DNA of 13,453 nt from a virus. Its lineage: Duplodnaviria > Heunggongvirae > Uroviricota > Caudoviricetes. The stretch is taken from the IMG/VR virus record IMGVR_UViG_2651869691_000006, positions 1 through 13,453 of that record; one strand, 5' to 3'. The notes below the pieces were generated by a model that made no database searches, was not told the DNA's origin, and saw only the letters and a list, made by a program, of their open reading frames with translations. Below, in pieces: positions 1 to 13,453 of this stretch (the stretch's first letter is position 1; every line of letters starts with the position of its first letter). Position numbers and translations under genes: made by a program.

Positions 1-650
<650 letters not shown>

Positions 651-651
<1 letters not shown>

Positions 652-1199
652 TGAGGACGATTGAAGCCATGCAGCGACAACTTCTCGGCCTGATTGGGCG
701 GGCAGTGGTGAAAAGCATCAGTGCCGCCACGAAATGTCAGACCGTGGATGTGTCCCTGATTGCCGGTGAACCCAAAGCCGGGGTTGAACATCTTGAACCC
801 TACGGTTTTACCGCAAGGGCAAACAGCGGTGCGGAAGCGGTGGTGTTGTTTCCGGATGGCGACCGTTCTCATGCGGTGGTTGTTACGGTGTCGGACCGGC
901 GCTACCGCCTGAAAGGGCTGCAGACGGGTGAGGTGGCTGTCTATGACGATCAGGGGCAGTCTGTGACGCTGACCCGGGAGGGGATCGTGGTGGACGGTGC
1001 AGGTAAAACGATCACGTTTCGCAATGCGCCCAGAGCACGTTTTGAAATGGACCTGGAAGTGACCGGACAGGTGAAAGACCTGTGCGACTCCGGCGGCACC
1101 ACCATGTCAGCGATGCGGCTTGCCTATAACGGCCATCGTCACAGAGAGAACGGTCAGGGCAGTAACACCGACAAACCGGATAAAGCGATGGAGGCATGA
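651..1199 (+). CDS. Phage baseplate assembly/spike protein V-like (Mu gp45-like)
   Basis: 182-aa ORF; ATG overlaps the upstream stop; motif ...LQTGEVAVYDDQGQSVTLTREGIVVDG... typical of gpV-type baseplate spike proteins; size and position match Mu gp45. Confidence 0.7.
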
Positions 1200-1624
1200 T
1201 GGAACTGTGGCTGACGGTGAACGGTAAACGCACCTGCGCCAGCGCACCGCTGGATCCGCTGACCCGCGCCGTGGTGATTTCCCTGTTCACCTGGCGGCGG
1301 GCGGAGCCTGATGACAATGCCGACGTCCCGATGGGATGGTGGGGGGATACCTGGCCTGCGGTACAGAATGACCGTTACGGCTCCCGGCTGTGGCTGCTTC
1401 AGCGCGGCAAACTGACCAATCAGCTGGTGCAGACGGTAAGGGGGTATATCCGCGAATGCCTGCAATGGATGATTGATGACGGTGTGGTGTCCCGTATTGA
1501 TCTGGATATCCGCCGCACCGGGATTAATGAACTGGGTAACAGTATCACTCTCTGGCGTCGTGACGGACCGGTAATGATTTCTTTTGATGATCTGTGGAGT
1601 GCGATAACGCATGGCGGACAGTGA
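1196..1624 (+). CDS. Phage baseplate protein, Mu gp46-like (GP46/W-like)
   Basis: 142-aa ORF overlapping the upstream stop by 4 nt (ATGA); size and position between V-like and J-like genes match Mu gp46. Confidence 0.65.
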   Translation: MMELWLTVNGKRTCASAPLDPLTRAVVISLFTWRRAEPDDNADVPMGWWGDTWPAVQNDRYGSRLWLLQRGKLTNQLVQTVRGYIRECLQWMIDDGVVSRIDLDIRRTGINELGNSITLWRRDGPVMISFDDLWSAITHGGQ

Positions 1625-2669
1625 ATTTCAGCGCCCGACGCTGGCAGAAAATATCAGTATGCTCCGTAACGATTTATTCGCCAGGCTGGACGTCAGCGAC
1701 ACGCTCCGGCGCATGGATGAAGACGTGCGGGCAAAGGTGTATGCGGCGGCGCTGCATACGGTTTACGGTTACATCGATTATCTGGCAATGAACATGCTGC
1801 CTGACCTGTGCGATGAGTCCTGGCTGGCGCGACATGCTGCGATGAAACGGTGTCCGCGCAAGGGGGCCACGGCTGCCAGCGGGTATATGCGCTGGGAAGG
1901 TGTCAGCGATGGCCTGAAGGTGACCGCCGGGAGTGTTATTCAGCGCGATGACCTGGTTCAGTACACGGCAACTGCCGATGCAACCAGCGCCGGTGGTGTC
2001 CTGCGCGTGCCGATCGCCTGCTCAAGTGCAGGAGCGGTCGGTAACGCTGACGACGGTACGTCATTAATCCTGGTCACGCCGGTGAATGGTCTGCCGTCTT
2101 CCGGCGTGGCAGACACTCTGACAGGTGGATTTGATACTGAAGAGCTGGAAACGTGGCGCGCCCGCGTCATTGAGCGGTATTACTGGACGCCTCAGGGCGG
2201 GGCTGACGGGGACTATGTAGTCTGGGCTAAAGAAGTGCCCGGCATTACCCGTGCATGGACATACCGCCACTGGATGGGAACGGGGACTGTCGGTGTGATG
2301 ATTGCCAGCAGTGACCTGATTAATCCCATTCCGGAAGAATCAACGGAAACGGCGGCAAGACAACACATTGAGCCACTGGCCCCGGTGGCAGGCTCTGATT
2401 TGTATGTATTCAGGCCGGTGGCGCATAAAGTGGATTTTCATATCCGCGTGACGCCGGACACACCGGAAATACGGGCTGCCATCACCGCCGAGTTGCGTTC
2501 GTTCCTGCTGCGTGATGGTTATCCGCAGGGAGAACTGAAGGTGTCGCGTATCAGTGAGGCGATTTCCGGTGCGAACGGGGAATACAGCCATCAGTTGCTT
2601 GCACCGGCGGACAATATCTCCATTGCAAAAAATGAACTGGCGGTACTGGGGACGATTTCATGGACGTGA
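1611..2669 (+). CDS. Baseplate J-like protein (Mu gp47-like; JayE-like)
   Basis: 352-aa ORF overlapping neighbours on both sides; size and order (V-like, gp46-like, J-like, gp48-like, tail fibre) match the Mu/P2 baseplate wedge. Confidence 0.75.
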
Positions 2670-3244
2670 CAAACGATGATTACATCCATCTGTTGTCGGC
2701 ACTGTTGCCCCCCGGTCCGGCGTGGTCAGCCAGCGATCCGGCGATTGCCGGTGCGGCACCGTCATTAACCCGCGTTCATCAGCGTGCGGATGCCCTGATG
2801 CGGGAGCTGGATCCGCGCACCACCACCGAACTGATAAATCGCTGGGAGCGTCTGTGCGGCCTGCCGGATGAATGTATTCCCGCAGGGACACAGACCCTTC
2901 GCCAGCGTCAGCAACGACTGGATGCGAAGGTTAACCTGGCGGGCGGCATCAATGAGGATTTTTACCTTGCACAGCTTGCTGCCCTGGGCAGACCAGACGC
3001 CACCATCACGCGATACGACAAAAGCACGTTCACCTGCTCATCGGCCTGTACTGACGCGGTGAATGCGCCGGAATGGCGGTATTACTGGCAGGTCAACATG
3101 CCAGCCGCCACCAACACCACCTGGATGACATGTGGCGATCCCTGTGATTCCGCACTGCGTATCTGGGGCGACACCGTTGTCGAGTGTGTGCTTAACAAAC
3201 TCTGCCCGTCGCATACCTACGTAATTTTTAAATATCCGGAGTAA
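2660..3244 (+). CDS. ymfQ: Phage tail protein, Mu gp48-like / P2 gpI-like (YmfQ-type, DUF2313)
   Basis: 194-aa ORF ([22 protein letters not shown]...) directly upstream of the tail-fibre gene; same length and position as YmfQ of K-12 e14. Confidence 0.65.
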
Positions 3245-3247
3245 TCC

Positions 3248-3832
3248 ATGCATCGTATAGACACGAAAACCGCGCAGAAGGATAAGTTCGGCGCGGGTAA
3301 GAACGGTTTTACCCGTGGTAACCCCCAGACCGGCACACCTGCCACCGATCTGGATGATGACTACTTTGACATGTTGCAGGAGGAACTTTGCAGTGTTGTG
3401 GAGGCATCCGGTGCCAGCCTGGAGAAGGGGCGGCATGACCAGCTGCTTACAGCGCTTCGTGCGCTGCTGTTAAGCCGCAAGAATCCGTTTGGCGATATCA
3501 AATCGGATGGCACGGTGAAAACGGCTCTCGAAAACCTTGGTTTGGGAGAAGGTGCTAACTGGGTTATGTTACCTGGAGGAATGATAATTCAGCGTGTTTA
3601 TCTTGGATTTCCTATTGGCACTAATGTAAGACATATAACTTTCCCCCGGTCGTTTACAACAACGAACTATTCCATCTCAATTAACTGGAATGATATCGGT
3701 ACTGTAACAACTGAAACACAATCACCAGCAAATGTGGCGGTTGTTCATCAAACAAAATCATTAACAGGGGCCAGCATCTGGCAGGCAGGTCCCGGGGGAT
3801 TTAATGTGGACATTATAGCGGTGGGGTATTGA
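3248..3832 (+). CDS. stfP: Side tail fibre protein (StfP-like): constant N-terminal part fused to the currently resident variable C-terminal part
   Basis: 194-aa ORF with the widespread prophage tail-fibre N-terminus [47 protein letters not shown]...; the invertase crossover site lies inside it at 3525-3550 (codons ...[11 protein letters not shown]...). Confidence 0.8.
3525..3550. repeat. Left crossover site of a Pin/Hin/Gin-family DNA invertase (26-bp imperfect palindrome)
   Basis: CTCTCGAAAACC-TT-GGTTTGGGAGAA; the left half matches the hixL half-site TTCTTGAAAACC at 10/12 positions; the right half is the reverse complement of TTCTCCCAAACC; located at the constant/variable junction of the tail-fibre gene. 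Confidence 0.7.
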
Positions 3833-3833
3833 T

Positions 3834-4262
3834 ATGTACGTATGGAGCGCTAAAGCAAATGGCTTTTTCCCCATATCGGAGAAAGAAAAATTTGAGGCAT
3901 CAGGTCTGTGGCCTGATGATGGTGTAATAGTCAGTGAGGAAGAACATAAAAAGTTATTTATGGATATTCCACCAGGAAAACAGATTGGAACACTGAATGG
4001 AAAACCAGCACTGATAGATATTCCTCAGCCGACCAAAAAGGAATTAATAGCTATTGCTGAAGTTAAAAAATCCCAATTACGGGAAAAGGCTGACAGTGAA
4101 ATATCCTGGCGTCAGGATGCTGTTGATGCTGATATCGCAACTGATGAAGAAGCTACAACTCTCACCCAATGGAAGAAATACCGTGTGCTGCTGATGCGTG
4201 TTGATACGTCAACAGCACCCGATATTGAATGGCCTACGCCTCCGGCAGTTCAGGCCAGATGA
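3834..4262 (+). CDS. tfaP: Tail fibre assembly protein (TfaP-like)
   Basis: 142-aa ORF immediately after the tail-fibre gene; C-terminus ...DTSTAPDIEWPTPP shares the motif found at the C-terminus of the convergent tfaE-like gene. Confidence 0.75.
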   Translation: MYVWSAKANGFFPISEKEKFEASGLWPDDGVIVSEEEHKKLFMDIPPGKQIGTLNGKPALIDIPQPTKKELIAIAEVKKSQLREKADSEISWRQDAVDADIATDEEATTLTQWKKYRVLLMRVDTSTAPDIEWPTPPAVQAR

Positions 4263-4827
4263 CATCCGGCGCGGTGCTGGTATCTGTTGCCGTCACCGCG
4301 TCAATGTAATCCAGCACGGCGTTAAGTCGGGTTGTTTCTGCCTGAGTCAGTTTCCGTCCGGCCTGTAATTTCAGCTGAATCAGACTAATGGAAGCCATTG
4401 CTGCATCAATCAGTGACTGGCGCTGTGCTTCTGCCGCGTCTACTGCGGCACTGTGTTGTGCCTCAGTGTCTGTCACCCATTTCTCACCATCCCATTTATC
4501 GTATGGCGTTAACGGTGAAAGCGTGACATAACCGTCTTTGATGGCACCGATATAATCCACTGTAACAGCTGCACCATTTTCGATTGAGTAAACAGTCTCA
4601 TTGCGATGGTCTTCCTCATGGCTCCATCCCTTACCTGTAAATACCGTCACTCTTCCCGGAATGTTTTCGCCCGGGTCAATACCAGTTGAACAGGCGGGCA
4701 TACTTACGCCAGTATTAATATATTCATCAGACCAGCCCGTATACTCAGATGTTTCAGCATCATAATAAAAACAACGCATATCGCCCGGCACTGTAGCCAG
4801 CCCATTTTCATCAAAAACAGGTTTCAT
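4234..4827 (-). CDS. tfaE: Tail fibre assembly protein (TfaE-like), alternative copy inside the invertible segment
   Basis: 197-aa minus-strand ORF; C-terminus ...DTSTAPDVIWPELPEA; 3' end overlaps tfaP by 29 nt on the opposite strand; start overlaps the stfE stop (TAATG). Confidence 0.75.
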   Translation of the reverse strand: MKPVFDENGLATVPGDMRCFYYDAETSEYTGWSDEYINTGVSMPACSTGIDPGENIPGRVTVFTGKGWSHEEDHRNETVYSIENGAAVTVDYIGAIKDGYVTLSPLTPYDKWDGEKWVTDTEAQHSAAVDAAEAQRQSLIDAAMASISLIQLKLQAGRKLTQAETTRLNAVLDYIDAVTATDTSTAPDVIWPELPEA

Positions 4828-5309
4828 TATTTAGCCCTCACCAGAAAGTTAAATGCAATATTTCGCGGTCTGACAGCAACAAAATTCACACCATCACCCA
4901 CAGAGTTACTGGTGAAATTAAATCGTGAAAATCCTGGCTGATTTCCGGCGATGCCATCATGAAAGTTAATTGCGTGTCCCGCACCTTCGCCTATATTCCC
5001 GGCAAACTGAGAAAAGTTTGTAGCTGCCTGCCAGCTTAATAATTCGCGACCACCATCTGCACCTCGCCCGTCATCCCAGACACGAATGAAATCACCGCGT
5101 GCGTCAGGTAATGCCAACGCCGGAAACACTTTCGCCAGCACAGGGTAATCAGTGGCAGAAAATTTCGCCCCGTTGAACTTCAAAAACACCATACTGGACC
5201 AGCTGTCGATTACAGTATTTGGCATTGCAGCGGACGCCCAGAAGAACGGAACGCCAATAGCTGGAGCACCTTCTCCCAAACTGCGATGGCTCACTGCTGA
5301 TATGTGCAA
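4827..5309 (-). CDS. stfE: Alternative tail-fibre variable C-terminal domain (StfE-like), promoterless; expressible only after inversion fuses it to the stfP constant part
   Basis: Minus-strand frame open from 5321 to the stop at 4827-4829, with no ATG near its 5' end (TTG at 5309); begins ...HISAVSHRSLGEGAPAIG..., sharing the LGEGA junction codons with stfP. Confidence 0.65.
   Translation of the reverse strand: MHISAVSHRSLGEGAPAIGVPFFWASAAMPNTVIDSWSSMVFLKFNGAKFSATDYPVLAKVFPALALPDARGDFIRVWDDGRGADGGRELLSWQAATNFSQFAGNIGEGAGHAINFHDGIAGNQPGFSRFNFTSNSVGDGVNFVAVRPRNIAFNFLVRAK
5265..5293. repeat. Right boundary repeat of the invertible segment: inner half-site only
   Basis: AGCACCTTCTCCCAAAC at 5265-5281 is the exact reverse complement of 3540-3556; beyond it (TGCGATGGCTCA) neither the core dinucleotide nor an outer half-site is recognisable. 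Confidence 0.6.
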
Positions 5310-5503
5310 TCGACGGGGAGTTCAGGATCAAGCGATATCGGACTCATCCTCAACACCACCTGATTAATTTGGAGAGCGGGAGAAGGGAGATGCTACCAGT
5401 AGATGATGACGGTTACGGTTCTGCTCCCGCGATATTCGGGGTGATTACTTACATCATTAATGATGCGAGGAACGCGGAGTTTGATGATTGTCCGGTGATG
5501 TAA

Positions 5504-6172
5504 TCATATTGGCGTTATTAGTTCGGCGCCCTGATTTTTCACATTCCCGACGGCACGCGTTACGGCGTGCCATATAAATTTATCAGCCGGTACAACACCG
5601 TCGGCTGCAATTTCCGCTGCTTCTTTCCCTCCAACATCCTGCCTCATCCATTCACGCGCGGCTTCCGGTAGCAGTACCAGTGGTCGTCTGTCGTGAATAT
5701 CAACCAGTCCTTTGTCAGCTGCAGCTGTAACTATCAGGAAACCTTCTGCTTCATCTCCACGTTCGAATGGTGTGCTGCCGATCGCCGCCATAAAAATCGG
5801 CTGACCGTCTGCCCGGTGAATAAAGTAGGGTTGTTTTTGGTCGCCTTCCTTTTTCCACTCATACCATCCATCAGCAAAGCAAATTGCGCGGCCATGCTGC
5901 CAGAGTGGTTTAAACATTCTGCTGGTGGCAGCAGTTTCAGACCGTGCATTAATGAGCGGCGGTTTATCCCACCAACCGGGGGCGTATCCCCAGATAACTG
6001 GATCAAGATGCAACTGCTCATCACGTTCGCTCAGAAGCAGAACTTTTGTTCCTGGCGCTACGTTGAATCTTCCGATGGGTTCTGGATCGTATGGAATATC
6101 GCGTTCTGATTCATCAGCGAGAAGGGCAAGATAATCTTCACGGGTCATTGACTGTGAAAAGCGTCCACACAT
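5504..6172 (-). CDS. SOS-response-associated peptidase (SRAP, YedK/HMCES family; abasic-site processing protein)
   Basis: 222-aa ORF starting MCGRFSQS (conserved Cys2 nucleophile of the SRAP/DUF159 family); GGAGG Shine-Dalgarno 5 nt upstream of the ATG. Confidence 0.8.
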   Translation of the reverse strand: MCGRFSQSMTREDYLALLADESERDIPYDPEPIGRFNVAPGTKVLLLSERDEQLHLDPVIWGYAPGWWDKPPLINARSETAATSRMFKPLWQHGRAICFADGWYEWKKEGDQKQPYFIHRADGQPIFMAAIGSTPFERGDEAEGFLIVTAAADKGLVDIHDRRPLVLLPEAAREWMRQDVGGKEAAEIAADGVVPADKFIWHAVTRAVGNVKNQGAELITPI

Positions 6173-6406
6173 AGAAACCTCCAGCCGTATGTCAGACTGA
6201 AAGTATAGGGCAGTTAGAAAAAGTGGTGCACACCGTTAAAGATTTAAAAGGAGCATGTAAGGTAAATCGGAATGATGGTTTTGTGAATTGATGAATTCCG
6301 AAAGTGAAAAAGATACTTAATCATTGTGTGCTAGCGATACGGGGGCAACATTTGACGGGGTTTTTCCCCTGTAATTCCCCATTGCTTCCCCGTTCAGAAA
6401 ACAGGC

Positions 6407-6431
6407 AAAAAAACCAGCCGTAACAGGCTGG
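6407..6431 (-). terminator. Rho-independent terminator (minus strand) within repeat copy 1
   Basis: On the minus strand: CCAGCC-tgttac-GGCTGG hairpin followed by TTTTTTT. Confidence 0.7.
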
Positions 6432-6446
6432 TTCTTCGAGGATTTT

Positions 6447-6491
6447 TGGTCGGCACGAGAGGATTTGAACCTCCGCCCCCCGACACCCCAT
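6447..6491 (-). pseudogene. tRNA-Pro 3' fragment (anticodon loop to CCA end), not a complete tRNA
   Basis: Reverse complement reads AUGGGGUGUCGGGGGGCGGAGGUUCAAAUCCUCUCGUGCCGACCA: T-arm GGAGG-UUCAAAU-CCUCU, acceptor 3' strand CGUGCCG, discriminator A, CCA. This matches from memory the 3' half of an E. coli proline tRNA (anticodon loop AUGGGGU). No 5' half is present upstream. Confidence 0.65.
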
Positions 6492-6569
6492 AGTGTCGTG
6501 CTAATATTCTGATGGCCTATATGCGTCTACAGTAAGTTGATAGCATCATTCGTCGGTCGCTTCGTAGTC

Positions 6570-7385
6570 TCACATACGGATAAAATTTTTTCTATTGATT
6601 TTGTCTCTATCAGAGCCATAAATGATGGTTGCAAAAAAACGACCTAATTCAAGATGGTGGAAGTGATTATCTTTTGCTTGAACTGTCATTGAGTCTAATA
6701 TGTTATAGATGCATTCTATGATATGAATAACTAATAAAGTGCGATAACCAGCAAGCATTTCACTTCTTTTAAGTAAATAATTTAAATCCCCTGCAGAGTT
6801 TATATGGTTTCTGTCTTCATCATAATATCCAAGCACATAGCATGGCAGTGTTTCACCATAGCTTCGGTATTGCTCGCATTTTTTATCAATTATATTTTTT
6901 TGTCTTTTTGTTAATATTTTATCGTAAATGCTCTTATCGATTTCATTATACCATTGCTTCATGGGATCATTGTCGTTGTCATTAGTAATGAAATCAATAT
7001 TACTATATCTTGATGAATTTGCAAAATTAGTTAACAACTCCATCACTCTGTAGTGAATTTCATTTAAGCCAGAGGGAGAATCAACTCTCTCAATGACTAG
7101 GTTGAATAACTTGCTTAAGTTATGACCGTAATCTCTTAATTTTTTGCGTGATGTATATTTTCCATTTTTATTATAATCATCAAGCATAAGGCAAAGTTTC
7201 ATAAGCCTTTCTAATCCTAAACTGATGCCGGATAATGCTTGAAAATACAATCCTCTACTTGCAAAATTTGCTTTCCTTAGGGAAGTGAGCCCTATGCCTA
7301 ATAATTGTCTTGAAAAGTCAACCTCATCAACAAATCTTCTGTATTTTTCATCCATAAAAACCTCAGTCAGCCAATTAATATTCAA
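6570..7385 (-). CDS. Hypothetical protein, 271 aa, AT-rich horizontally acquired cargo gene; function unknown (candidate defence/abortive-infection-like)
   Basis: Long minus-strand ORF in a region that appears strongly AT-rich by inspection, in contrast to flanking DNA; Lys/Asn/Ile/Tyr-rich protein; contains KLRDYGHNLSKL (R-x3-H); followed by the terminator in repeat copy 1. Confidence 0.7.
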   Translation of the reverse strand: MNINWLTEVFMDEKYRRFVDEVDFSRQLLGIGLTSLRKANFASRGLYFQALSGISLGLERLMKLCLMLDDYNKNGKYTSRKKLRDYGHNLSKLFNLVIERVDSPSGLNEIHYRVMELLTNFANSSRYSNIDFITNDNDNDPMKQWYNEIDKSIYDKILTKRQKNIIDKKCEQYRSYGETLPCYVLGYYDEDRNHINSAGDLNYLLKRSEMLAGYRTLLVIHIIECIYNILDSMTVQAKDNHFHHLELGRFFATIIYGSDRDKINRKNFIRM

Positions 7386-7577
7386 GAATGATTTCTATAA
7401 AGAACTAATCTAGTTAAATCATCTGATGTAATTAGTATTACAATACCATCAGACGACATTGAAGCAGTATTGTGCCTTATCTACCCTATGTACGTCCATT
7501 GATAAAAATCTGCGCTTTTCGCAGTGGGGTCAATCGTAAGCTAATTTCCCCATTGCTTCCCCGTTCAGAAAACAGGC

Positions 7578-7603
7578 AAAAAAAACCAGCCGTAACAGGC
7601 TGG
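7578..7603 (-). terminator. Rho-independent terminator (minus strand) within repeat copy 2
   Basis: Same CCAGCC/GGCTGG hairpin followed by an 8-T run on the minus strand, positioned downstream of the 322-aa gene. Confidence 0.7.
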
Positions 7604-7618
7604 TTCTTCGAGGATTTT

Positions 7619-7662
7619 TGGTCAGCACGAGAGGATTTGAACCTCCGCCCCCGACACCCCAT
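7619..7662 (-). pseudogene. tRNA-Pro 3' fragment (copy 2), acceptor stem mutated (CGUGCUG)
   Basis: Reverse complement reads AUGGGGUGUCGGGGGCGGAGGUUCAAAUCCUCUCGUGCUGACCA. Confidence 0.6.
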
Positions 7663-7858
7663 AGCGGTGATCTACCTTCTCATCAAGGGTAACCATGTGC
7701 CAGAAGCAGCCCTTGCGCACATTGGATGGGTATCAAATAATGAAGTAGGTCAACTTTATTAAATAAAATTGTGTTGGTTCAGATGATCGAATGGGAATGA
7801 ATAGTTTATTACTTTTGGTGACCGCAAGCGCGATCACCTTCGATTTGGTGGCAATTAC

Positions 7859-8827
7859 CTAGAATGATGCACAATCTTTAAGCTCTTTTTCTAGTTGTTC
7901 AACCAAGTCACAGCATTTTTTGATAACATCTTTAACTGACTCTGAATCTAACTTATGAAAATTACCATTTTTTGTTTTACCTGCTCGATGAACTAAGTCA
8001 TGCCTAATTAACACGCTTTTATAAACTTCTGTGAAAACAGGGAATTTAATACCAAAGGTATCTCGATACATGCCACTTACTTTTGGCAGATTATGATAAA
8101 GAACACTCTTCATAGACTCTATCGCTTGAGACTCTATTTGTTCATGCCTTATAAATAATTCAGAAAGTAAGAATTTTTCTGTATTGTAATCTTTGAAGGT
8201 TTCAACAAAATTTCTCAAATTAGTTTGGCTACCATGAATTAGGGAAATAAATCTGTCACATAAATATGTTTCCAAGGAAGTTATTGTATTGGCATATAGC
8301 ATATACGACATTTGTATTTGTAAAGTGCTATCAATTTTTAACTGAGCATCATTTAGTTTTATGGCGTTCTGCATACTATTTTGGAATGTCATATAGACAT
8401 CTCGTTCAGATAGCGTTCGATCATCAGAGTACTGCATATCAATAACATCTAGAATGCGCTGTTCAATTAATGAAGGTCTATTCAACTGTAATATATCTAT
8501 AGTCGCATGTCCTCGCTCAGTTAAACCTTCTAAATATCCATTTTTATTTTGTTTTATATGTTCTGAAAAACTTTCATTTAAAGGATTTAGAAGTAATGGT
8601 TTGCCATTTTCATCGAGAGGAAACTGATCTTTTTTAATCATGCTACATGCCTTACAAGCGATGAGCAGGTTGTCTGTAGCATCTTGGAAGTCAGTATACT
8701 TTGATTTTGGGAAAAAACGATCAACATCCGCCATCAATGGTTCATAAAGTTTAGTGCCACAGTAAGCACATTGATGCTTAAACTTCTCCCATAGTTCAAG
8801 TTTAAACGTTTTATAATTCTTATTCAT
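7859..8827 (-). CDS. Hypothetical protein, 322 aa, AT-rich cargo gene: N-terminal HNH-like zinc-ribbon domain with non-canonical catalytic positions plus C-terminal domain with an R-x4-H motif (candidate nuclease/defence protein)
   Basis: N-terminus has C20-x2-C23 ... D36-R37-FFPKS ... N53-LLIA-C58-x2-C61, the spacing of an HNH motif but with Arg where the DH histidine normally sits; C-terminus contains IRHDLVHRAG (R275-x4-H280); region appears AT-rich by inspection. Confidence 0.7.
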   Translation of the reverse strand: MNKNYKTFKLELWEKFKHQCAYCGTKLYEPLMADVDRFFPKSKYTDFQDATDNLLIACKACSMIKKDQFPLDENGKPLLLNPLNESFSEHIKQNKNGYLEGLTERGHATIDILQLNRPSLIEQRILDVIDMQYSDDRTLSERDVYMTFQNSMQNAIKLNDAQLKIDSTLQIQMSYMLYANTITSLETYLCDRFISLIHGSQTNLRNFVETFKDYNTEKFLLSELFIRHEQIESQAIESMKSVLYHNLPKVSGMYRDTFGIKFPVFTEVYKSVLIRHDLVHRAGKTKNGNFHKLDSESVKDVIKKCCDLVEQLEKELKDCASF

Positions 8828-9271
8828 TGAATAGTTCCTTTATATTCTTGACTTGATTGTTTGTTTGCCAATTTAAGCCAAAGACACACGACTTTAATTG
8901 GGCTTGAATCATAGTTATATGTAATCTATTAAGCAAACACTTTTCATTAATAGCATGAGATAACGCTCAATTCTTTATTTTCCGGGAGTGTGTAACTTCA
9001 TATCCACCTCTCACTCACAGCGTACGTTATTGGCGAAAAATTTAGTTAAGCCATTGATAGTTTGTGAAAACACGCATGATTTAAAATCCCTTTGCCGTGA
9101 AGGGGCTGATAGGTACAGGCACTTGTTTTTGCCCTCTAAAACGGTTATCAAAACCAAAAAACATACATTGATAATCAATAGGTTAGGGGAAAGATAAAAG
9201 CCAGTTGATTTACAATAAAATTATAGGATTATTTTTATTTATCATGCGGTTGTATATGAACCATCTAACTA

Positions 9272-9436
9272 CTGCTGCGCCATATGGGCTGGACTGAAGC
9301 CGCAGACCTGATTGTTAAAGGTATGGAAGGCGCAATCAACGCCAAGACCGTAACCTATGACTTCGAGCGTCTGATGGAAGGCGCTAATCTGCTGAAATGT
9401 TCAGAGTTTGGTGACGCGATCATCAAGAACATGTAA
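9272..9436 (+). pseudogene. icdC: icd 3'-terminal fragment (icdC): displaced original 3' end of isocitrate dehydrogenase, marking prophage attR
   Basis: Translates in frame to [54 protein letters not shown], the C-terminus of Icd; no upstream icd sequence (in-frame TAA at 9266-9268). Confidence 0.85.
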
Positions 9437-9460
9437 TCTCTACATGTGTTAAATATTGAA

Positions 9461-9488
9461 ACGGGCGTATAACACGCCCGTTGTTTTT
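9461..9488 (+). terminator. Rho-independent terminator of icd
   Basis: ACGGGCGT-ataac-ACGCCCGT hairpin followed by TGTTTTT. Confidence 0.75.
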
Positions 9489-9697
9489 ATAAATATGTTA
9501 ACCGTTATAAAATAACGTATCAAAAGTCAAGTGAACACATTTCAAATATCAATTTGATCGTATTGGTCTGGTGATTATTTATGGGGAGCAATAAAAAGAC
9601 AGTATTAATCATCCATAGGGATGGTCTCTGCACTTTTATTTCCATTATGCTAATGCCTTACTGAATTATGAAGCATTTCTTAAGCTCCCAACTTTAG

Positions 9698-10102
9698 CTA
9701 GATTAATGGTTTATTATTTTCTACATCTTCAATATATAAAAGCGTATTATCAATGGCGTAGTAACTGCGTTTGTTATGATTAACATCAGTAACCCACCGG
9801 AAAACGCCTGCGCCTGCCAGTGTTGAACAGTATTCCCGAAATGTAGATTTTCCGCGAATATGAAGCAATGCGGCCTCTTTTATTTTAGCTGGGTTCTTGG
9901 TCGTACTAACTTTTAACAGGTTCCTGGTTCCTCTTAATAACAAAACCGTGTCATCGTGAGTAATAATTCTGATGTTATCCGTAGCCAGATAATAAATGTA
10001 ATGTGCAATACGGTGATGTTTTAATTCTGAATAAAACCAGGAGAAGTTTTGCTCTTTTCTCACTTGCTCAAACATCTTTTGAAAAACAACGACCTGATCC
10101 AT
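9698..10102 (-). CDS. ycgX: DUF1398-family protein YcgX
   Basis: 134-aa ORF with the GVFRWVT motif; same size and position (between icdC and bluR) as K-12 ycgX. Confidence 0.8.
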   Translation of the reverse strand: MDQVVVFQKMFEQVRKEQNFSWFYSELKHHRIAHYIYYLATDNIRIITHDDTVLLLRGTRNLLKVSTTKNPAKIKEAALLHIRGKSTFREYCSTLAGAGVFRWVTDVNHNKRSYYAIDNTLLYIEDVENNKPLI

Positions 10103-10322
10103 CAGGATAATAACCTCTTGTTAGGTGTGAGACTGCGTAGTGTGCACGATCGGTTTTACCACTTCAATCTGGTCTGTCCTTTGGCTGTGATATGTACAAA
10201 GTGTGAAAGGGGGATTACCTGAATTCTCCCGGTGAGCATTTTGCAACGGACCAGCTCCGCTACAAACGCTGTTGTGGGTTCAGATTATAACATTCTGTCT
10301 AAGGGGCGGGATAAAGGTGAAT

Positions 10323-11054
10323 TTAGGGGGCATGAAAGATGACTTTATAACCTTGCTCACCCCAGTGTTGTAAAAGTTCGTTTTGCCTTCTCGTTGGTGC
10401 CATGCCTGTCCAGACAATCAATGTTTGCGTTGGGAACAGTTCCGGGCGCGGCGATTCAATGGGATCAGCAAGAACAGAAATGTGCCATCCTGACAATGAT
10501 AAACGCCATGCTTCCAGCCACAATCGTGCTCTCTCTTCAACATTCCACGCCATCAGAATGGCCTCTTTACCGGGCTTACGGCGCATTTCGAAAAGTGAGG
10601 CCGCTGCGTATTCAATTAATGTGCCGTCAAACATACTGCTCATAATGCGGGAGGTGTTGTGATCAAGCACGAGACGCTGGCGAACAGGAAGGTAAACATG
10701 ATTAATCAATTGATCTACTGGGTACTCTCGACCCAGTGAAATAATTCGCGCGCGTAGTTTGGCTGGATTAGCCATACGAAGAATTGACATCATCTCTTCT
10801 TGCAGGCGGCTCCAGTCATCTTGCGTATCCTGGCTGGTAGTTTCCAGTAATGCTTTCACTTTGCCTACAGGAACGCCATTACTTATCCAACGCTTGATCT
10901 CTTCGATGCGTTGTATGTCTTCTTCATCAAAGAGTCGGTGTCCGCCTTCACTGCGCTGTGGTTTTAACAAACCGTAGCGGCGTTGCCAGGCCCGGAGAGT
11001 GACAGGATTAATCCCGCAACGTTCAGCAACATCACCAATGCTGTAATAAGCCAC
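10323..11054 (-). CDS. bluR: MerR-family transcriptional repressor BluR (YcgE)
   Basis: 243-aa ORF; N-terminal MerR helix-turn-helix ([42 protein letters not shown]); synteny with bluF and ycgZ. Confidence 0.85.
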
Positions 11055-11103
11055 AATTCCTCCTTGCGGTCATAAATCTCCGTCGCCTCTACACGACCCA
11101 ATA

Positions 11104-11141
11104 ATACTTTGTACAATATACGCTGAAATTGTACAAAGTAT
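11104..11141. promoter_or_regulatory. Perfect 14-bp inverted repeat with 10-bp spacer between bluF and bluR (candidate operator or RNA hairpin)
   Basis: ATACTTTGTACAAT-atacgctgaa-ATTGTACAAAGTAT; each arm contains the self-complementary octamer TTGTACAA; lies 50-87 bp upstream of the bluR start. Confidence 0.35.
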
Positions 11142-11258
11142 AAATAAGATTTCAGCTAAATTGGATGAAACATTATTTTTAATGTGGATTAAATTAAAAC
11201 ATAACGCATTCATTTTCGCGATGATTTCCAGAAATCATGCGAAATAATGTGCTGAAAA

Positions 11259-12470
11259 TTATTTTTTCTCCGGCCACGCAACTGAAGGGATACCATTCAA
11301 TTTAGCTTTGGAAAACAGATCTCCCTGAAACATCTCAATTCCTGCAGATTCAAGCCACATCCACTCTTCTGGTGTTGCCACGCCCATAGCAGAGACTTGA
11401 ATTTCAAGTGATGTACAGCATTTCATGATCGCCTGAATAATTGCCTGCCGTGGTCCGCTTTTATGAACATTGGTAATCAATTCCTGACTGATTTTAATTC
11501 TGTCAGGCTGGAAGCGTGACAGGAGTAACAAACCAGCAAAACCTGCGCCAAAATGATCAATTGCTACACTGATACCGGCAGCCTTTAGCGATTTAACCGC
11601 TTCGGCAAACTCATCAAACCGAGATATGACTTCACTTTCAGTAAATTCAACGATGATTTGTTCAGGCACCAGAGCATTGGCCTTTATTTCATCAAGTAAA
11701 AAAGAGACTGCGTCAGGCTCGTTAACCAGGGTCATAGGTAATAGATTGATTGAAATCATTTTATCACCGAGCTTAAGTGCGTGTGCCATCGCAAATGCAA
11801 GCGCCTTACTTTTGAGATCCGCTGTGTAGATTTCCTCGTCTTTACGCTGCCCAACCGCTATAGCTGACGGGCTGTCTTCATTTTTTTGCACAATGGCTTC
11901 AAAAGCGATTATCCGCCGCGATAAAGGGTCGACAATAGGATGAAAGGCAAAGTGGTCGTTTATATTTGATGAAAGGGTACAAGAATCAAGTTCTTTATCA
12001 GATCCGTCAGCGATAAAAAGCCAGGAGTCTTCAGCAGGAATCTCGAAATAGGTTGATTGTTCAGTTGCAAGGACAAAAGTACGAAAAAATTGTAGCGCTC
12101 TGTCATCATAAGTTAGCTGAAATTTTGATGTGCCTTTGTCGAATACGGCCTGTAAAACGTCATCTCGCTCGTGCAGGCGTAAATCAAATAATTCCATTCC
12201 TGCTTTGCCAAAACGGCGAGCAGGCGCGTAATCGCACAACAGTTCAACAATATTATAGTGCCGTGGATCCTGGCATATGGCCCGATATATCATTTGAACC
12301 TGTTCTTCCGGACCTTCCAGAAGCTGGAAAAAATGAGAACCATTAAACAGTAAGATCCCTGTTACGTCAGACCGCATGTTCCTGCGATTTGCTATCGAAA
12401 CCATTTCTTCGATTTTTTTGACAGGTTCGTCGTCACGTATATGGCTACGATAAATAAGGGTGGTAAGCAT
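11259..12470 (-). CDS. bluF: Blue-light sensor BluF (YcgF), BLUF-EAL protein
   Basis: Start chosen at the internal ATG giving MLTTLIYRSHIRDDEP... (403 aa) rather than the TTG at 12548 used by the ORF track; N-terminal BLUF domain, C-terminal EAL-like domain; divergent from ycgZ. Confidence 0.85.
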   Translation of the reverse strand: MLTTLIYRSHIRDDEPVKKIEEMVSIANRRNMRSDVTGILLFNGSHFFQLLEGPEEQVQMIYRAICQDPRHYNIVELLCDYAPARRFGKAGMELFDLRLHERDDVLQAVFDKGTSKFQLTYDDRALQFFRTFVLATEQSTYFEIPAEDSWLFIADGSDKELDSCTLSSNINDHFAFHPIVDPLSRRIIAFEAIVQKNEDSPSAIAVGQRKDEEIYTADLKSKALAFAMAHALKLGDKMISINLLPMTLVNEPDAVSFLLDEIKANALVPEQIIVEFTESEVISRFDEFAEAVKSLKAAGISVAIDHFGAGFAGLLLLSRFQPDRIKISQELITNVHKSGPRQAIIQAIMKCCTSLEIQVSAMGVATPEEWMWLESAGIEMFQGDLFSKAKLNGIPSVAWPEKK

Positions 12471-12548
12471 TAACAATCCAGGGTAATAGGCGAGGCGAGA
12501 GTAAGACGGTAACAGACATATCTTCTTGTGTCTTTCTTTTAATACCAA

Positions 12549-12783
12549 AACATAACCGTTTCTTTACATTGATAAAAAGTGGAAAAGGTTGAAGACGGTT
12601 TGGCGAAAAAACTTGTATAGGTTGTCATTTAAATGATGCAATATGTTTTATCATAATGCATTGTTTTATATGAATTAGCACTAATTGAGAAAAATTAATT
12701 TATCATTCTGTACACATATTTCGTACAAGTTTGCTATTGTTACCTCACTTAACATTGATTAACATTTTTAACAGAGGCGTAGC
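12549..12783. promoter_or_regulatory. Divergent bluF / ycgZ-ymgA promoter region (expected BluR-controlled ycgZ promoter)
   Basis: 235-bp AT-rich intergenic region between divergently oriented bluF and ycgZ; regulatory role inferred from established knowledge of the BluR/BluF-ycgZ-ymgA-ariR circuit, with no specific operator identified here. Confidence 0.5.
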
Positions 12784-13020
12784 ATGCATCAAAATTCAGT
12801 GACTTCAGATTCTGCAGGAGCAATCACTCGTTACTTTGCAAAAGCTAAGTTGCCTACTCAGCAGGAAACTCTCGGGGAAATTGTGACTGAGATTTTGAAA
12901 GATGGACGTAATCTGAGTCGAAAGTCGCTTTGTGCCAAACTTCTTTGCCGACTGGAACAAGCGACAGGGGAAGAGGAACAGAAACATTATAATGCACTAA
13001 TTGGGTTGCTTTTTGAATAA
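12784..13020 (+). CDS. ycgZ: Small regulatory protein YcgZ (biofilm/acid-resistance connector)
   Basis: 78-aa ORF MHQNSVTSDSAGAITRYFAKAKL...; size and synteny. Confidence 0.85.
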   Translation: MHQNSVTSDSAGAITRYFAKAKLPTQQETLGEIVTEILKDGRNLSRKSLCAKLLCRLEQATGEEEQKHYNALIGLLFE

Positions 13021-13062
13021 TGCAACAGCCTGATTATTTAACAGGTTAGCTATGAAGTCGTT

Positions 13063-13335
13063 ATGAAGACATCTGATAATGAAAGTATAAAATATGAAAT
13101 TACTGGCCAGGCGGTGCTCCAGATACTGCGCATGAAGATAAATTTTTCGTTGCAGACTCTTATTAAGCAATTACTCGTAATGAAATCGGCTGAGGAAAAT
13201 ACTTTCCGACGAGATTTAATTGACAGCATAATTCGTGATTTTAGCAACAGTGATACAGGAGGGCCAAACCGAAGAACAGCGATAGCTGACAATAAAAGTA
13301 TGTTCACTGGTAAGAAAATAAACAGAATACATTAA
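13063..13335 (+). CDS. ymgA: Small regulatory protein YmgA
   Basis: 90-aa ORF MKTSDNESIKYEITGQAVLQILRMKINF...; follows ycgZ by 42 bp. Confidence 0.85.
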   Translation: MKTSDNESIKYEITGQAVLQILRMKINFSLQTLIKQLLVMKSAEENTFRRDLIDSIIRDFSNSDTGGPNRRTAIADNKSMFTGKKINRIH

Positions 13336-13406
13336 AATTTCATAAGTAAGATGAGAGGGTAATGACTCCAACTTATTGATAGTGTTTTATGTTCAGATAA
13401 TGCCCG

Positions 13407-13453
13407 ATGACCTTGTCATGCAGCTCCACCGATTTTGAGAACGACAGTGACTT
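13407..13453 (+). CDS. Possible 5' end of the next operon gene (position expected for ariR/ymgB), truncated by window end
   Basis: Only frame open to the window end after the stop at 13398-13400; ATG at 13407 (MTLSCSSTDFENDSD...); weak Shine-Dalgarno; not verified. Confidence 0.2.
   Translation, partial: MTLSCSSTDFENDSD

What the first reader, a model, noticed from the sequence alone, without database searches (positions are those of the whole stretch)
5310..9271. Variable cargo replaces the pinE-mcrA slot between the tail-fibre segment and attR (icdC)
By established K-12 gene order, e14 ends ...stfP-tfaP-tfaE-stfE-pinE-mcrA-icdC. Here the tail-fibre segment and icdC are present, but the interval holds an SRAP gene, two AT-rich orphans and tRNA-fragment repeats. 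The composition shifts from the phage module to clearly AT-rich DNA. This is the pattern of a prophage-end defence or moron hotspot with swapped content.
Basis: partly seen in the sequence, partly recalled or inferred. Interest (0 to 1): 0.6.

Follow-up and report, generated by a model that had tools for sequence, protein, structure and literature searches.

The report
Swapped cargo at e14 prophage end
The right end of this e14-type prophage in E. coli carries a rare patchwork of imported genes (an SRAP gene and two AT-rich HEPN-type candidate anti-phage genes, separated by leftover tRNA-Pro attachment sites) where K-12 carries mcrA; this is a further example of the known habit of prophages to keep exchangeable defence genes next to their attachment site.

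Summary
Between the invertible tail-fibre segment and icdC lie an SRAP gene (5504-6172), two AT-rich genes (6570-7355 and 7859-8827, GC about 0.33) and a 119-bp direct repeat (6375-6493 and 7546-7664) that holds a tRNA-Pro 3' half.

The hotspot reading holds. Related prophages with the same tail module carry mcrA, a DUF262 type IV enzyme, PD-T4-3 with a type II R-M system, HEC-08, a HipA-like kinase with DUF3037, gtr genes or unknown genes at this position. This cargo is in 8 of 5426 complete E. coli genomes; mcrA is in 331.

Three corrections:
- pinE was not swapped out. It was lost in a later 1.5-kb deletion whose junction (5281) lies inside the right crossover site of the invertible segment.
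- SRAP and the tRNA pieces are the right arm and attP relic of a relative that integrates at proL. The repeat starts exactly in the anticodon loop.
- The "orphans" are not orphans. One is a HEPN-fold protein whose 79% homolog sits in a P2-like prophage variable locus. The other is a PtuB-like HNH fused to a RiboL-PSP-type HEPN, whose 83% homolog sits between the primase and integrase genes of a P4-like satellite. Its HNH catalytic His is Arg here.

A defence function is inferred, not shown. This is a new member of a known kind.

The parts
3525..3550 (.). Left crossover site (pixL) of the invertible tail-fibre segment. Context only.
   Evidence: CTCTCGAAAACCTTGGTTTGGGAGAA is the inverted copy of the right site found in fEC.1. 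Homology to other e14 variants breaks at 3551.
5271..5281 (.). Left half of the right crossover site (pixR), and the junction of the 1502-bp deletion that removed pin, dinI and the 5' part of umuD.
   Evidence: The window reads TTCTCCCAAAC|TGCGATGG. fEC.1 (L002) reads TTCTCCCAAACCAACGTTTATGAAAA at 9194, and ...CTTACTGCC|TGCGATGG at 10706/10707.
5288..5467 (+). Remnant of an UmuD-like S24 peptidase gene: the C-terminal ~56 codons, with no start codon.
   Evidence: tblastn with the UmuD of L028 gives E 1.3e-7, residues 83-138 of 139. The full but frameshifted gene is present in L001 and L002.
5504..6172 (-). SRAP (YedK-like) gene, 222 aa, intact, N-terminal MCGRF. It is the last gene of the DinI-UmuDC-SRAP block.
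   Evidence: Pfam SRAP 6.8e-51 and NCBIfam PRK09951 464 bits. The same gene lies next to UmuC and tRNA-Pro in L028, L030 and L032. dN/dS is 0.07-0.12.
6375..6493 (-). Repeat copy 1: tRNA-Pro(GGG) 3' half (6447-6493), an intrinsic terminator (6408-6437) and 33 more bases. It is the attP relic of a proL-type relative.
   Evidence: The distance from the tRNA 3' end to the SRAP start is within a base or two of that in the proL-integrated prophage L028 (about 275 nt). Homology to L027, L028, L030 and L032 stops at 6491, in the anticodon loop.
6570..7355 (-). ORF261: a HEPN-fold protein with an extra C-terminal helical domain. Candidate single-gene defence or abortive-infection protein. The cassette homology spans 6581-7432.
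7546..7664 (-). Repeat copy 2: the same tRNA-Pro 3' half plus terminator. A degenerate tRNA 5'-half-like stretch follows up to about 7709.
   Evidence: Its 5' flank aligns with the pseudo-tRNA of L027 and L030.
7859..8827 (-). HNH-HEPN fusion, 322 aa: a PtuB/TIGR02646-like HNH domain (about 1-150) joined to a RiboL-PSP-type HEPN domain (about 160-322, motif R275-x4-H280). The HNH general-base His is replaced by Arg37. The cassette homology spans 7695-9021.
9027..9271 (.). Conserved right arm of the icd-type element (the P arm next to attR). AT-rich, with no ORF assigned.
   Evidence: 86.5% identical to L030 from 9027 and 85-87% identical to the mcrA-type and STEC17-183-type e14 from 9138.
9272..9441 (+). 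icdC: the displaced host 3' end of icd (attR).
   Evidence: Pfam Iso_dh positions 306-348. Annotated as a partial isocitrate dehydrogenase in L001-L005. There are 7361 copies of this stretch in 5426 genomes.

Best explanation
The interval is the accessory (moron or defence) region at the attR-proximal end of a defective e14-family prophage integrated in icd. It is a nested mosaic of three independently acquired pieces. All are transcribed on the minus strand, and each ends at its own terminator.

(1) 5281-6493 is what remains of the right arm of a relative that integrates at proL. That arm reads pin-DinI-UmuD-UmuC-SRAP-attP. Here it is cut down to a UmuD tail, an intact SRAP gene and the attP relic (the tRNA-Pro 3' half from the anticodon loop onward, plus its terminator).

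(2) 6494-7664 is a 1171-bp insertion lying exactly at that att core. It carries ORF261, a non-canonical HEPN-fold protein, and a second copy of the 119-bp att segment.

(3) 7695-9021 is a 1.3-kb cassette encoding a PtuB-like HNH fused to a RiboL-PSP-type HEPN domain. Then come the conserved right arm (9027-9271) and icdC.

In K-12 the equivalent position holds mcrA. In other relatives it holds other restriction or abortive-infection genes.

Shown here: the anatomy, the boundaries, the rarity of this cargo, the independent mobility of the two AT-rich genes, their folds, and purifying selection on them.

Inferred: the two HEPN proteins act as single-gene anti-phage effectors expressed from the prophage. 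They would most likely act by abortive infection, through RNA cleavage by the HEPN domain. The HNH DNase of this allele is probably inactive because of H37R. SRAP would act in DNA-damage tolerance (protection of abasic sites), not in defence.

pinE is missing because of a later 1502-bp deletion that starts in the middle of the right crossover site. That deletion locked the tail-fibre segment in one orientation.
For: Anatomy and boundaries:
- Relatives and the deletion junction.
- A proL-integrated relative has pinE-...-DinI-UmuD-UmuC-SRAP-tRNA-Pro-yejM with the same spacing.
- The repeat begins in the anticodon loop, and homology to four other variants ends at 6491.
- L030 has UmuC-SRAP, a single pseudo-tRNA, different cargo (including HEC-08), then the same right arm and icdC.
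- Cassette limits of 7695-9021 and 6581-7432 come from DNA homology to a Serratia P4-like satellite and a Klebsiella P2-like prophage.

Hotspot:
- Alternative occupants are mcrA, a DUF262 type IV enzyme (PADLOC mREase_IV, 1516 bits), PD-T4-3 with a type II R-M system, PDC-M66A/B (HipA-like kinase with DUF3037, the domain pair reported for the validated DS-6 in PMC13092281), HEC-08, gtrABC, an acyltransferase and several unknowns.
- Counts in 5426 complete genomes: this cargo 8, mcrA 331, the tail module 1069, and about 1900 extra icd 3' copies.

Proteins:
- ORF261 has a HEPN fold.
- The second protein is an HNH-HEPN fusion.
- dN/dS is 0.08-0.20.
- Terminators lie behind each gene.
Against: - No experiment links either HEPN protein to phage resistance. 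PADLOC 2.0 has no full-length model for them, and the paper searches found no tested homolog.
- ORF261 lacks the canonical Rx4-6H motif.
- The HNH general base is Arg in this allele, which could mean decay.
- The prophage is degraded: pin is deleted, umuD is truncated, and there are IS ends at 77/78 and 13361/13362. The cargo could therefore be unselected.
- The catalogue of alternative cargo is a sample of about 15 loci, not a census. Enrichment for defence genes was not tested statistically.
- The mechanism that duplicated the att segment is not resolved.
Confidence: 0.72

Rival explanations
1. Decay debris. The interval is a graveyard of inactive fragments in a dying prophage. The AT-rich genes are no longer functional and confer nothing on the host.
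For: - pin, dinI and umuC are lost and umuD is truncated.
- The HNH catalytic His37 is Arg, and N62 is Ser.
- IS ends interrupt the element at both ends of the window, and IS insertions sit in SRAP in Ecol_545 and C1.
- AT-rich DNA of this kind is typically silenced by H-NS (established knowledge, not tested here).
Against: - All three ORFs are full length, and dN/dS against distant homologs is 0.07-0.20.
- The exact HNH-HEPN protein is indexed in 670 blocks of public assemblies, always intact and next to ORF261.
- The HEPN motif R275-H280 is invariant.
- Each cassette keeps its upstream region and a terminator.
Confidence: 0.18
2. ORF261 and HNH-HEPN form one two-gene system, for example a toxin with its regulator or two cooperating HEPN subunits, acquired together.
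For: They are adjacent, on the same strand, of similar GC, and always together in the E. coli assemblies examined.
Against: - Their closest homologs occur apart. HNH-HEPN is alone (with an unrelated DUF6404 gene) in Serratia P4-like satellites. ORF261 is without any HNH-HEPN in a Klebsiella P2-like prophage.
- In the window they are separated by 473 bp that hold an att relic and a terminator.
- DNA homology to the donor contexts ends on either side of each gene separately.
Confidence: 0.06
3. The tRNA-Pro pieces are host DNA from a proL locus, picked up by imprecise excision as in specialised transduction. They are not phage attP relics.
For: The fragment matches chromosomal tRNA-Pro genes of nearly all E. 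coli genomes at 88-92% over 85 nt, and at 98% over the 47-nt tRNA part.
Against: - In the proL-integrated prophage L028, the tRNA 3' half, the terminator and the next ~150 nt lie on the prophage side, between the tRNA and SRAP, and are 92% identical to the window. The host gene yejM lies on the other side.
- The same segment is found in prophages integrated at icd and at paoD, and in IMG/VR viral contigs.
- No host gene from the proL neighbourhood is present in the window.
Confidence: 0.08

Closest known systems
Defence hotspots inside P2-like phages and P4-like satellites (Rousset et al. [quoted passage not shown] 2023, PMC10121019)
   Same: There are conserved flanks (tail fibre and pin on one side, right arm and att on the other). 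Between them, otherwise related elements carry unrelated AT-rich cargo, and many of those genes are recognised defence genes. The closest homolog of the HNH-HEPN gene sits between the primase and integrase genes of a P4-like satellite, which I take (from memory, not checked in a paper) to be the P4 hotspot. That of ORF261 sits in a P2-like prophage between gpS and gpV, which I take (also from memory) to be the P2 orf30 variable locus.
   Different: The carrier is a different phage family: e14-type, with lambdoid early genes, a Mu-like baseplate and a Pin-invertible tail fibre. The slot lies directly against attR. It holds relic attP sites as internal boundaries. In the papers I could search, I found no description of this slot as a hotspot.
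e14 of E. coli K-12, with the gene order stfP-tfaP-tfaE-stfE-pinE-mcrA-icdC
   Same: Same integration site (icd, with icdC displaced). Same tail module at 96-98% identity. Same right arm from 9138 at 85% identity.
   Different: mcrA is replaced by about 3.7 kb of other cargo. pinE is deleted. The host iraM region beyond icdC is also missing.
PtuB, the HNH effector of Septu and of retron I-A systems (TIGR02646)
   Different: There is no PtuA ATPase and no retron next to it. The domain is fused to a HEPN domain instead. The general-base His is Arg in this allele.
AbiV and the classical HEPN proteins of Pfam PF05168 (HEPN toxins of HEPN-MNT pairs)
   Same: ORF261 has the four-helix HEPN fold. It carries a conserved His in the third helix (GH(D/N)L) and RY in the fourth. 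This pattern lacks Rx4-6H; Anantharaman et al. note for AbiV the absence of Rx4-6H and an alternative conserved His (PMC3710099).
   Different: ORF261 is 261 aa, with an extra C-terminal helical domain of about 130 residues. It has no MNT partner, and there is no significant sequence match to any Pfam or PADLOC model.
SRAP/YedK linked to UmuDC-type SOS genes on mobile elements (Aravind et al. 2013, cited from my own knowledge)
   Same: In relatives, SRAP sits directly after UmuD-UmuC and DinI.
   Different: In the window the polymerase genes are gone and only SRAP is intact.

Membership tests
Prophage-internal defence/moron hotspot | Conserved flanks shared by related elements | tested here: met
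   The tail module is 96-99% identical in 1069 genomes. The right arm and icdC are shared with L004, L005 and L030.
Prophage-internal defence/moron hotspot | Unrelated, exchangeable gene content between the flanks | tested here: met
   At least 10 different contents in about 15 sampled loci. No BLASTP similarity among the cargo proteins.
Prophage-internal defence/moron hotspot | Occupants enriched in known defence systems | tested here: inconclusive
   McrA, mREase_IV, PD-T4-3, a type II R-M system, HEC-08 and PDC-M66A/B were found among the occupants. This is a sample only, and no statistical test against the background was run.
Prophage-internal defence/moron hotspot | The cargo in this window protects against phage | not testable with these tools
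   Needs cloning and phage challenge.
e14 element at icd | Integration in icd with a displaced icd 3' end (icdC) at attR | tested here: met
e14 element at icd | pinE and mcrA at the right end | tested here: not met
   tblastn with Pin finds nothing. The mcrA cassette shares nothing with the window left of 9138.
HEPN superfamily (ORF261) | Four-helix HEPN fold | tested here: met
HEPN superfamily (ORF261) | Catalytic Rx4-6H motif | tested here: not met
   The invariant residues are H78 and R116-Y117-S118-N119. No His follows R116 within 4-6 residues.
RiboL-PSP-HEPN (PF18735), C-terminal domain of the 322-aa protein | Match to the family profile | tested here: inconclusive
   The window protein scores 16 bits against a cut-off of 28.4. 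PF18735 is recorded on many homologs.
RiboL-PSP-HEPN (PF18735), C-terminal domain of the 322-aa protein | Rx4-6H motif and HEPN fold | tested here: met
Septu / retron I-A PtuB HNH | HNH domain of the TIGR02646 type | tested here: met
Septu / retron I-A PtuB HNH | Catalytic general-base His of the HNH motif | tested here: not met
   R37 in the window and in the E. coli alleles P0001 and P0006. His in 21 of 22 aligned homologs.
Septu / retron I-A PtuB HNH | Adjacent PtuA ATPase, or a retron RT with its ncRNA | tested here: not met
   No such ORF lies within the interval.
SRAP / YedK | Full-length profile match and N-terminal catalytic Cys2 | tested here: met
   Pfam profile positions 1-214 of 214, NCBIfam above its cut-off, sequence starts MCGRF.
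tRNA-gene attachment-site relic | Identity block starts in the anticodon loop, runs through the 3' end of the tRNA, and lies at a prophage end in relatives | tested here: met
   Alignment A1. L028 lies at proL.
tRNA-gene attachment-site relic | Cognate integrase next to it | tested here: not met
   There is no integrase in the window. The element uses icd.

The most novel reading that the evidence does not exclude
The relic attP(proL) pseudo-tRNA sites are not passive scars. They would be working landing pads where e14-family phages capture and exchange single-gene cassettes by integrase-mediated recombination at the anticodon-loop core. That would make the prophage end a small, integron-like cassette array. 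The terminator inside each site would also insulate the cassettes from one another.

What fits this reading: the ORF261 insertion sits exactly at the core and is flanked by two 119-bp copies. In five different variants (the window, L005, L027, L030, L032) a pseudo-tRNA marks the border between conserved and variable DNA.
Probability: 0.12. Interest if true: 0.6.

Novelty: new member of a known kind. Interest (0 to 1): 0.35.

Why it matters
The finding adds the pin-to-att interval of e14-family prophages to the list of phage-borne defence hotspots. About a fifth of complete E. coli genomes carry this tail module.

It also nominates two compact, untested candidate effectors:
- a 261-aa non-canonical HEPN protein;
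- a 322-aa PtuB-like HNH-HEPN fusion that exists naturally in an HNH-intact form (Serratia, Proteus, Enterobacter) and an H37R form (E. coli).

The pair of alleles is a ready-made natural experiment on which nuclease domain does the work.

The nested attP relics record how these phages change integration site and pick up cargo.

None of this overturns current views. It is a clean, well-bounded example of a known principle.

Tried and rejected
- ARAGORN and Rfam found no intact tRNA or other RNA family in 5200-9600. The repeats are therefore gene fragments, not genes.
- I considered a two-gene system of ORF261 and HNH-HEPN and rejected it, because their homologs occur apart.
- I considered capture of host proL DNA and rejected it, because the segment lies on the phage side in L028.
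- I considered a canonical Pin-mediated deletion for the loss of pin. The junction lies within 1-2 nt of the centre of the crossover site. But the partner site has no recognisable half-site, and the central dinucleotides differ (AA against TG or GC). So at most it was an aberrant Pin event.
- Other cargo proteins from the slot share no similarity with the window's genes.
- Literature searches for a described e14 hotspot or a tested HNH-RiboL-PSP-HEPN protein found none. The library lacks Rousset 2022, Vassallo 2022 and Brenes & Laub 2025, so these searches cannot establish that no such description exists.
- P0065 (Pectobacterium) could not be located on a contig.

Full report
**What the window is.** It covers the right third of an e14-family prophage: Mu-like baseplate genes, YmfQ, and an invertible stf/tfa tail-fibre segment. 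After this come icdC, ycgX, bluR and bluF. A draft E. coli assembly (GCA_048083045.1, L019) is collinear with window 78-13361 at 99.7%. The first 77 and last 92 bases are ends of multicopy insertion sequences; the right one is IS1.

**Checking the observation.**
- SRAP lies at 5504-6172 on the minus strand (Pfam 6.8e-51).
- Two AT-rich genes lie at 6570-7355 and 7859-8827.
- A 119-bp direct repeat lies at 6375-6493 and 7546-7664.
- icdC lies at 9272-9441.
- GC falls from 0.54 in the tail genes to 0.33-0.34 in the two cassettes.
- pinE and mcrA are absent.

**Where pinE went.** The closest complete genomes (fEC.1, CDF6) carry stf'-pin-DinI-partial ORF-UmuD-like (frameshifted)-SRAP-ORF261-HNH-icdC-iraM. 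Against them the window lacks 1502 bp. The junction at 5281 lies inside the 26-bp right crossover site of the invertible segment. The window reads TTCTCCCAAAC|TGCGATGG, where fEC.1 reads TTCTCCCAAACCAACGTTTATGAAAA. Window 5288-5467 still encodes the last ~56 residues of the UmuD-like protein. So pin is a conserved neighbour of the slot that was lost secondarily, possibly through an aberrant Pin reaction. It is not part of the swapped cargo. The same pin-less form occurs in many draft assemblies.

**What the tRNA fragments are.**
- On the minus strand, each repeat reads as the 3' half of tRNA-Pro(GGG), from the anticodon loop to CCA. A hairpin-plus-T-run terminator and about 40 further bases follow.
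- In strain 100181, a prophage with the same pinE and tail module is integrated at proL. Its end reads pinE-DUF3037-HipA-like kinase-DinI-UmuD-UmuC-SRAP-tRNA-Pro-yejM. The tRNA 3' half, the terminator and the spacer to SRAP lie on the phage side, are 92% identical to the window, and have the same spacing to within a base or two.
- So 5281-6493 is the right arm and attP relic of a proL-type relative.
- Homology between the window and four other variants (L027, L028, L030, L032) stops at 6491, in the anticodon loop. That is the usual crossover position for tRNA-targeting integrases.
- Both copies are preceded by degenerate tRNA 5'-half-like sequence, as is the pseudo-tRNA of AR_0128.
- An IMG/VR contig (L030) has UmuC-SRAP, a single pseudo-tRNA, three other genes, then the same right arm and icdC. 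Relative to such a form, the window carries a 1171-bp insertion (ORF261 plus one repeat copy) exactly at the att core.

**The two AT-rich genes.**

*ORF261.*
- It has 26 homolog clusters among 5.8 billion sequences, scattered over Enterobacterales, Aeromonas and Pasteurellaceae.
- A 79% homolog in Klebsiella michiganensis lies between gpS and gpV of a P2-like prophage. DNA homology is limited to 6581-7432.
- The AlphaFold model is confident (mean pLDDT 90).
- The conserved residues are GH(D/N)L and RYSN, not Rx4-6H. That is the pattern of classical PF05168 HEPN proteins (my reading); AbiV likewise lacks Rx4-6H and keeps an alternative conserved His (PMC3710099).

*The 322-aa protein.*
- Its 83% homolog in Serratia lies alone between the primase and a truncated integrase of a P4-like satellite, which I take from memory to be the P4 hotspot. 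DNA homology (85.7%) spans 7695-9021.
- The E. coli allele has Arg in place of the HNH general-base His37. This residue is His in 21 of 22 aligned homologs. The DNase is therefore probably inactive, while the HEPN motif is intact.
- This exact protein is indexed in 670 blocks of public assemblies. In the contexts read it is always beside ORF261, and beside SRAP (IS-disrupted or uncalled in three), once next to a P4-type integrase near speC and yqgA.

dN/dS against the distant homologs is 0.20 for HNH-HEPN and 0.08 for ORF261. The two genes travel separately elsewhere, so they are best read as two single-gene cassettes.

**Is the slot a hotspot?** I sampled prophages that share the baseplate module (1069 genomes at 80% coverage or more) and looked downstream of the tail fibres.

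| Attachment site | Content between pin and att |
|---|---|
| icd | mcrA |
| icd | DUF262 type IV enzyme (PADLOC mREase_IV, 1516 bits) |
| icd | HTH, pseudo-tRNA-Pro, three unknowns |
| icd | HEC-08 and two unknowns |
| ssrA | three unknowns |
| ssrA | PD-T4-3 with a type II R-M system |
| dusA | DUF4145 and DinI |
| beside bioA | gtrA, gtrB-type glycosyltransferase (yfdH) and an unknown gene |
| paoD | three unknowns |
| paoD | SRAP, pseudo-tRNA, an unknown, IS1, a HEPN protein |
| proL | HipA-like kinase with DUF3037 (PDC-M66A/B; the domain pair reported for the validated DS-6, PMC13092281) |

One further sampled locus (L026) has an acyltransferase and IS1 after the tail-fibre genes, followed by lysis genes of another prophage; its attachment site was not determined.

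The cargo proteins are unrelated to one another. In 5426 complete genomes, this cargo occurs in 8 and the mcrA cassette in 331, many of them K-12 laboratory strains. There are about 1900 extra copies of the icd 3' end. Neither arrangement is the common ancestral one, and none of the cargo genes is a core gene.

**How it most likely works.**
- *Shown:* a nested mosaic with sharp boundaries, each gene on the minus strand and followed by a terminator. Two of those terminators are the tRNA-derived ones.
- *Inferred:* the lysogen expresses the cassettes as morons. The HEPN proteins would act as abortive-infection or restriction-like effectors against superinfecting phages, in the way McrA does in K-12. 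SRAP would be a leftover of an SOS damage-tolerance block.
- The main rival is that the genes are unselected debris in a decaying prophage. H37R, the deletions and the IS insertions speak for that. Intact ORFs, low dN/dS and wide distribution speak against it.

**Comparison with known systems and novelty.** It is established that prophages and satellites keep exchangeable defence genes at dedicated positions (PMC10121019; Rousset et al. 2022, from my own knowledge). I found no paper that describes this slot in e14-type phages, and no tested homolog of either HEPN protein. However, the searchable library lacks several key papers. I file this as a new member of a known kind, of moderate interest. 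The most novel reading still open is that the relic att sites actively mediate cassette capture. I rate that unlikely (about 0.12).

Noticed in passing
window 5271-5281 (with pixL at 3525-3550): The 1502-bp deletion that removed pin, dinI and the 5' part of umuD starts within 1-2 nt of the centre of the right crossover site of the invertible tail-fibre segment. The partner sequence in umuD has no recognisable half-site. This may be an aberrant Pin-mediated deletion that destroyed pin itself and locked the segment in one orientation.
   Followed up: partly
window 7859-8827, codon 37 (and codon 62): The E. coli allele of the HNH-HEPN protein has Arg instead of the near-invariant HNH general-base His, and Ser instead of the usual Asn at position 62. 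The Serratia, Proteus and Enterobacter alleles keep His. The R37 allele is indexed in 670 blocks of public assemblies.
   Followed up: partly
window 9442-9487: The host iraM-ymgK region (813 bp in CDF6 and fEC.1) is missing. The loss lies between two 46-bp direct repeats of the icd terminator region, which suggests that iraM itself sits on an old insertion at the icd attachment site.
   Followed up: no
window 1-77 and 13362-13453: Both ends of the window are ends of multicopy insertion sequences. The left one is unidentified, with up to 26 copies per genome, some on plasmids. The right one is IS1. The left one interrupts a baseplate gene, so the prophage is defective.
   Followed up: partly
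L013, L014, L015, L017, L018, L033-L035 (draft and metagenome E. coli contigs): In many strains icdC is followed directly by the integrase and Exc of a second, lambdoid prophage (RecT, Gam, KilR). This is a tandem occupation of the icd site.
   Followed up: no
L038 (CP164611.1), locus 4283-9323: The same HNH-ORF261-SRAP-DinI-pin block lies directly next to a P4-type integrase beside speC and yqgA. The cargo block therefore also occurs with a different integration module.
   Followed up: no
L005 6548-6669 (STEC17-183), L027 5858-6020 (AR_0128): Other e14-family variants, integrated at icd and at paoD, also carry a tRNA-Pro-like pseudo-gene inside the cargo region, at the border between conserved and variable DNA. 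PGAP annotates the AR_0128 copy as an 82-nt tRNA-Pro, but ARAGORN does not call it.
   Followed up: partly
L010/L011 9014-9874 (Klebsiella michiganensis P2-like prophage): In the gpS-gpV locus, the ORF261 homolog is paired with a convergent 286-aa gene that matches no family. The window has no counterpart of this gene.
   Followed up: no
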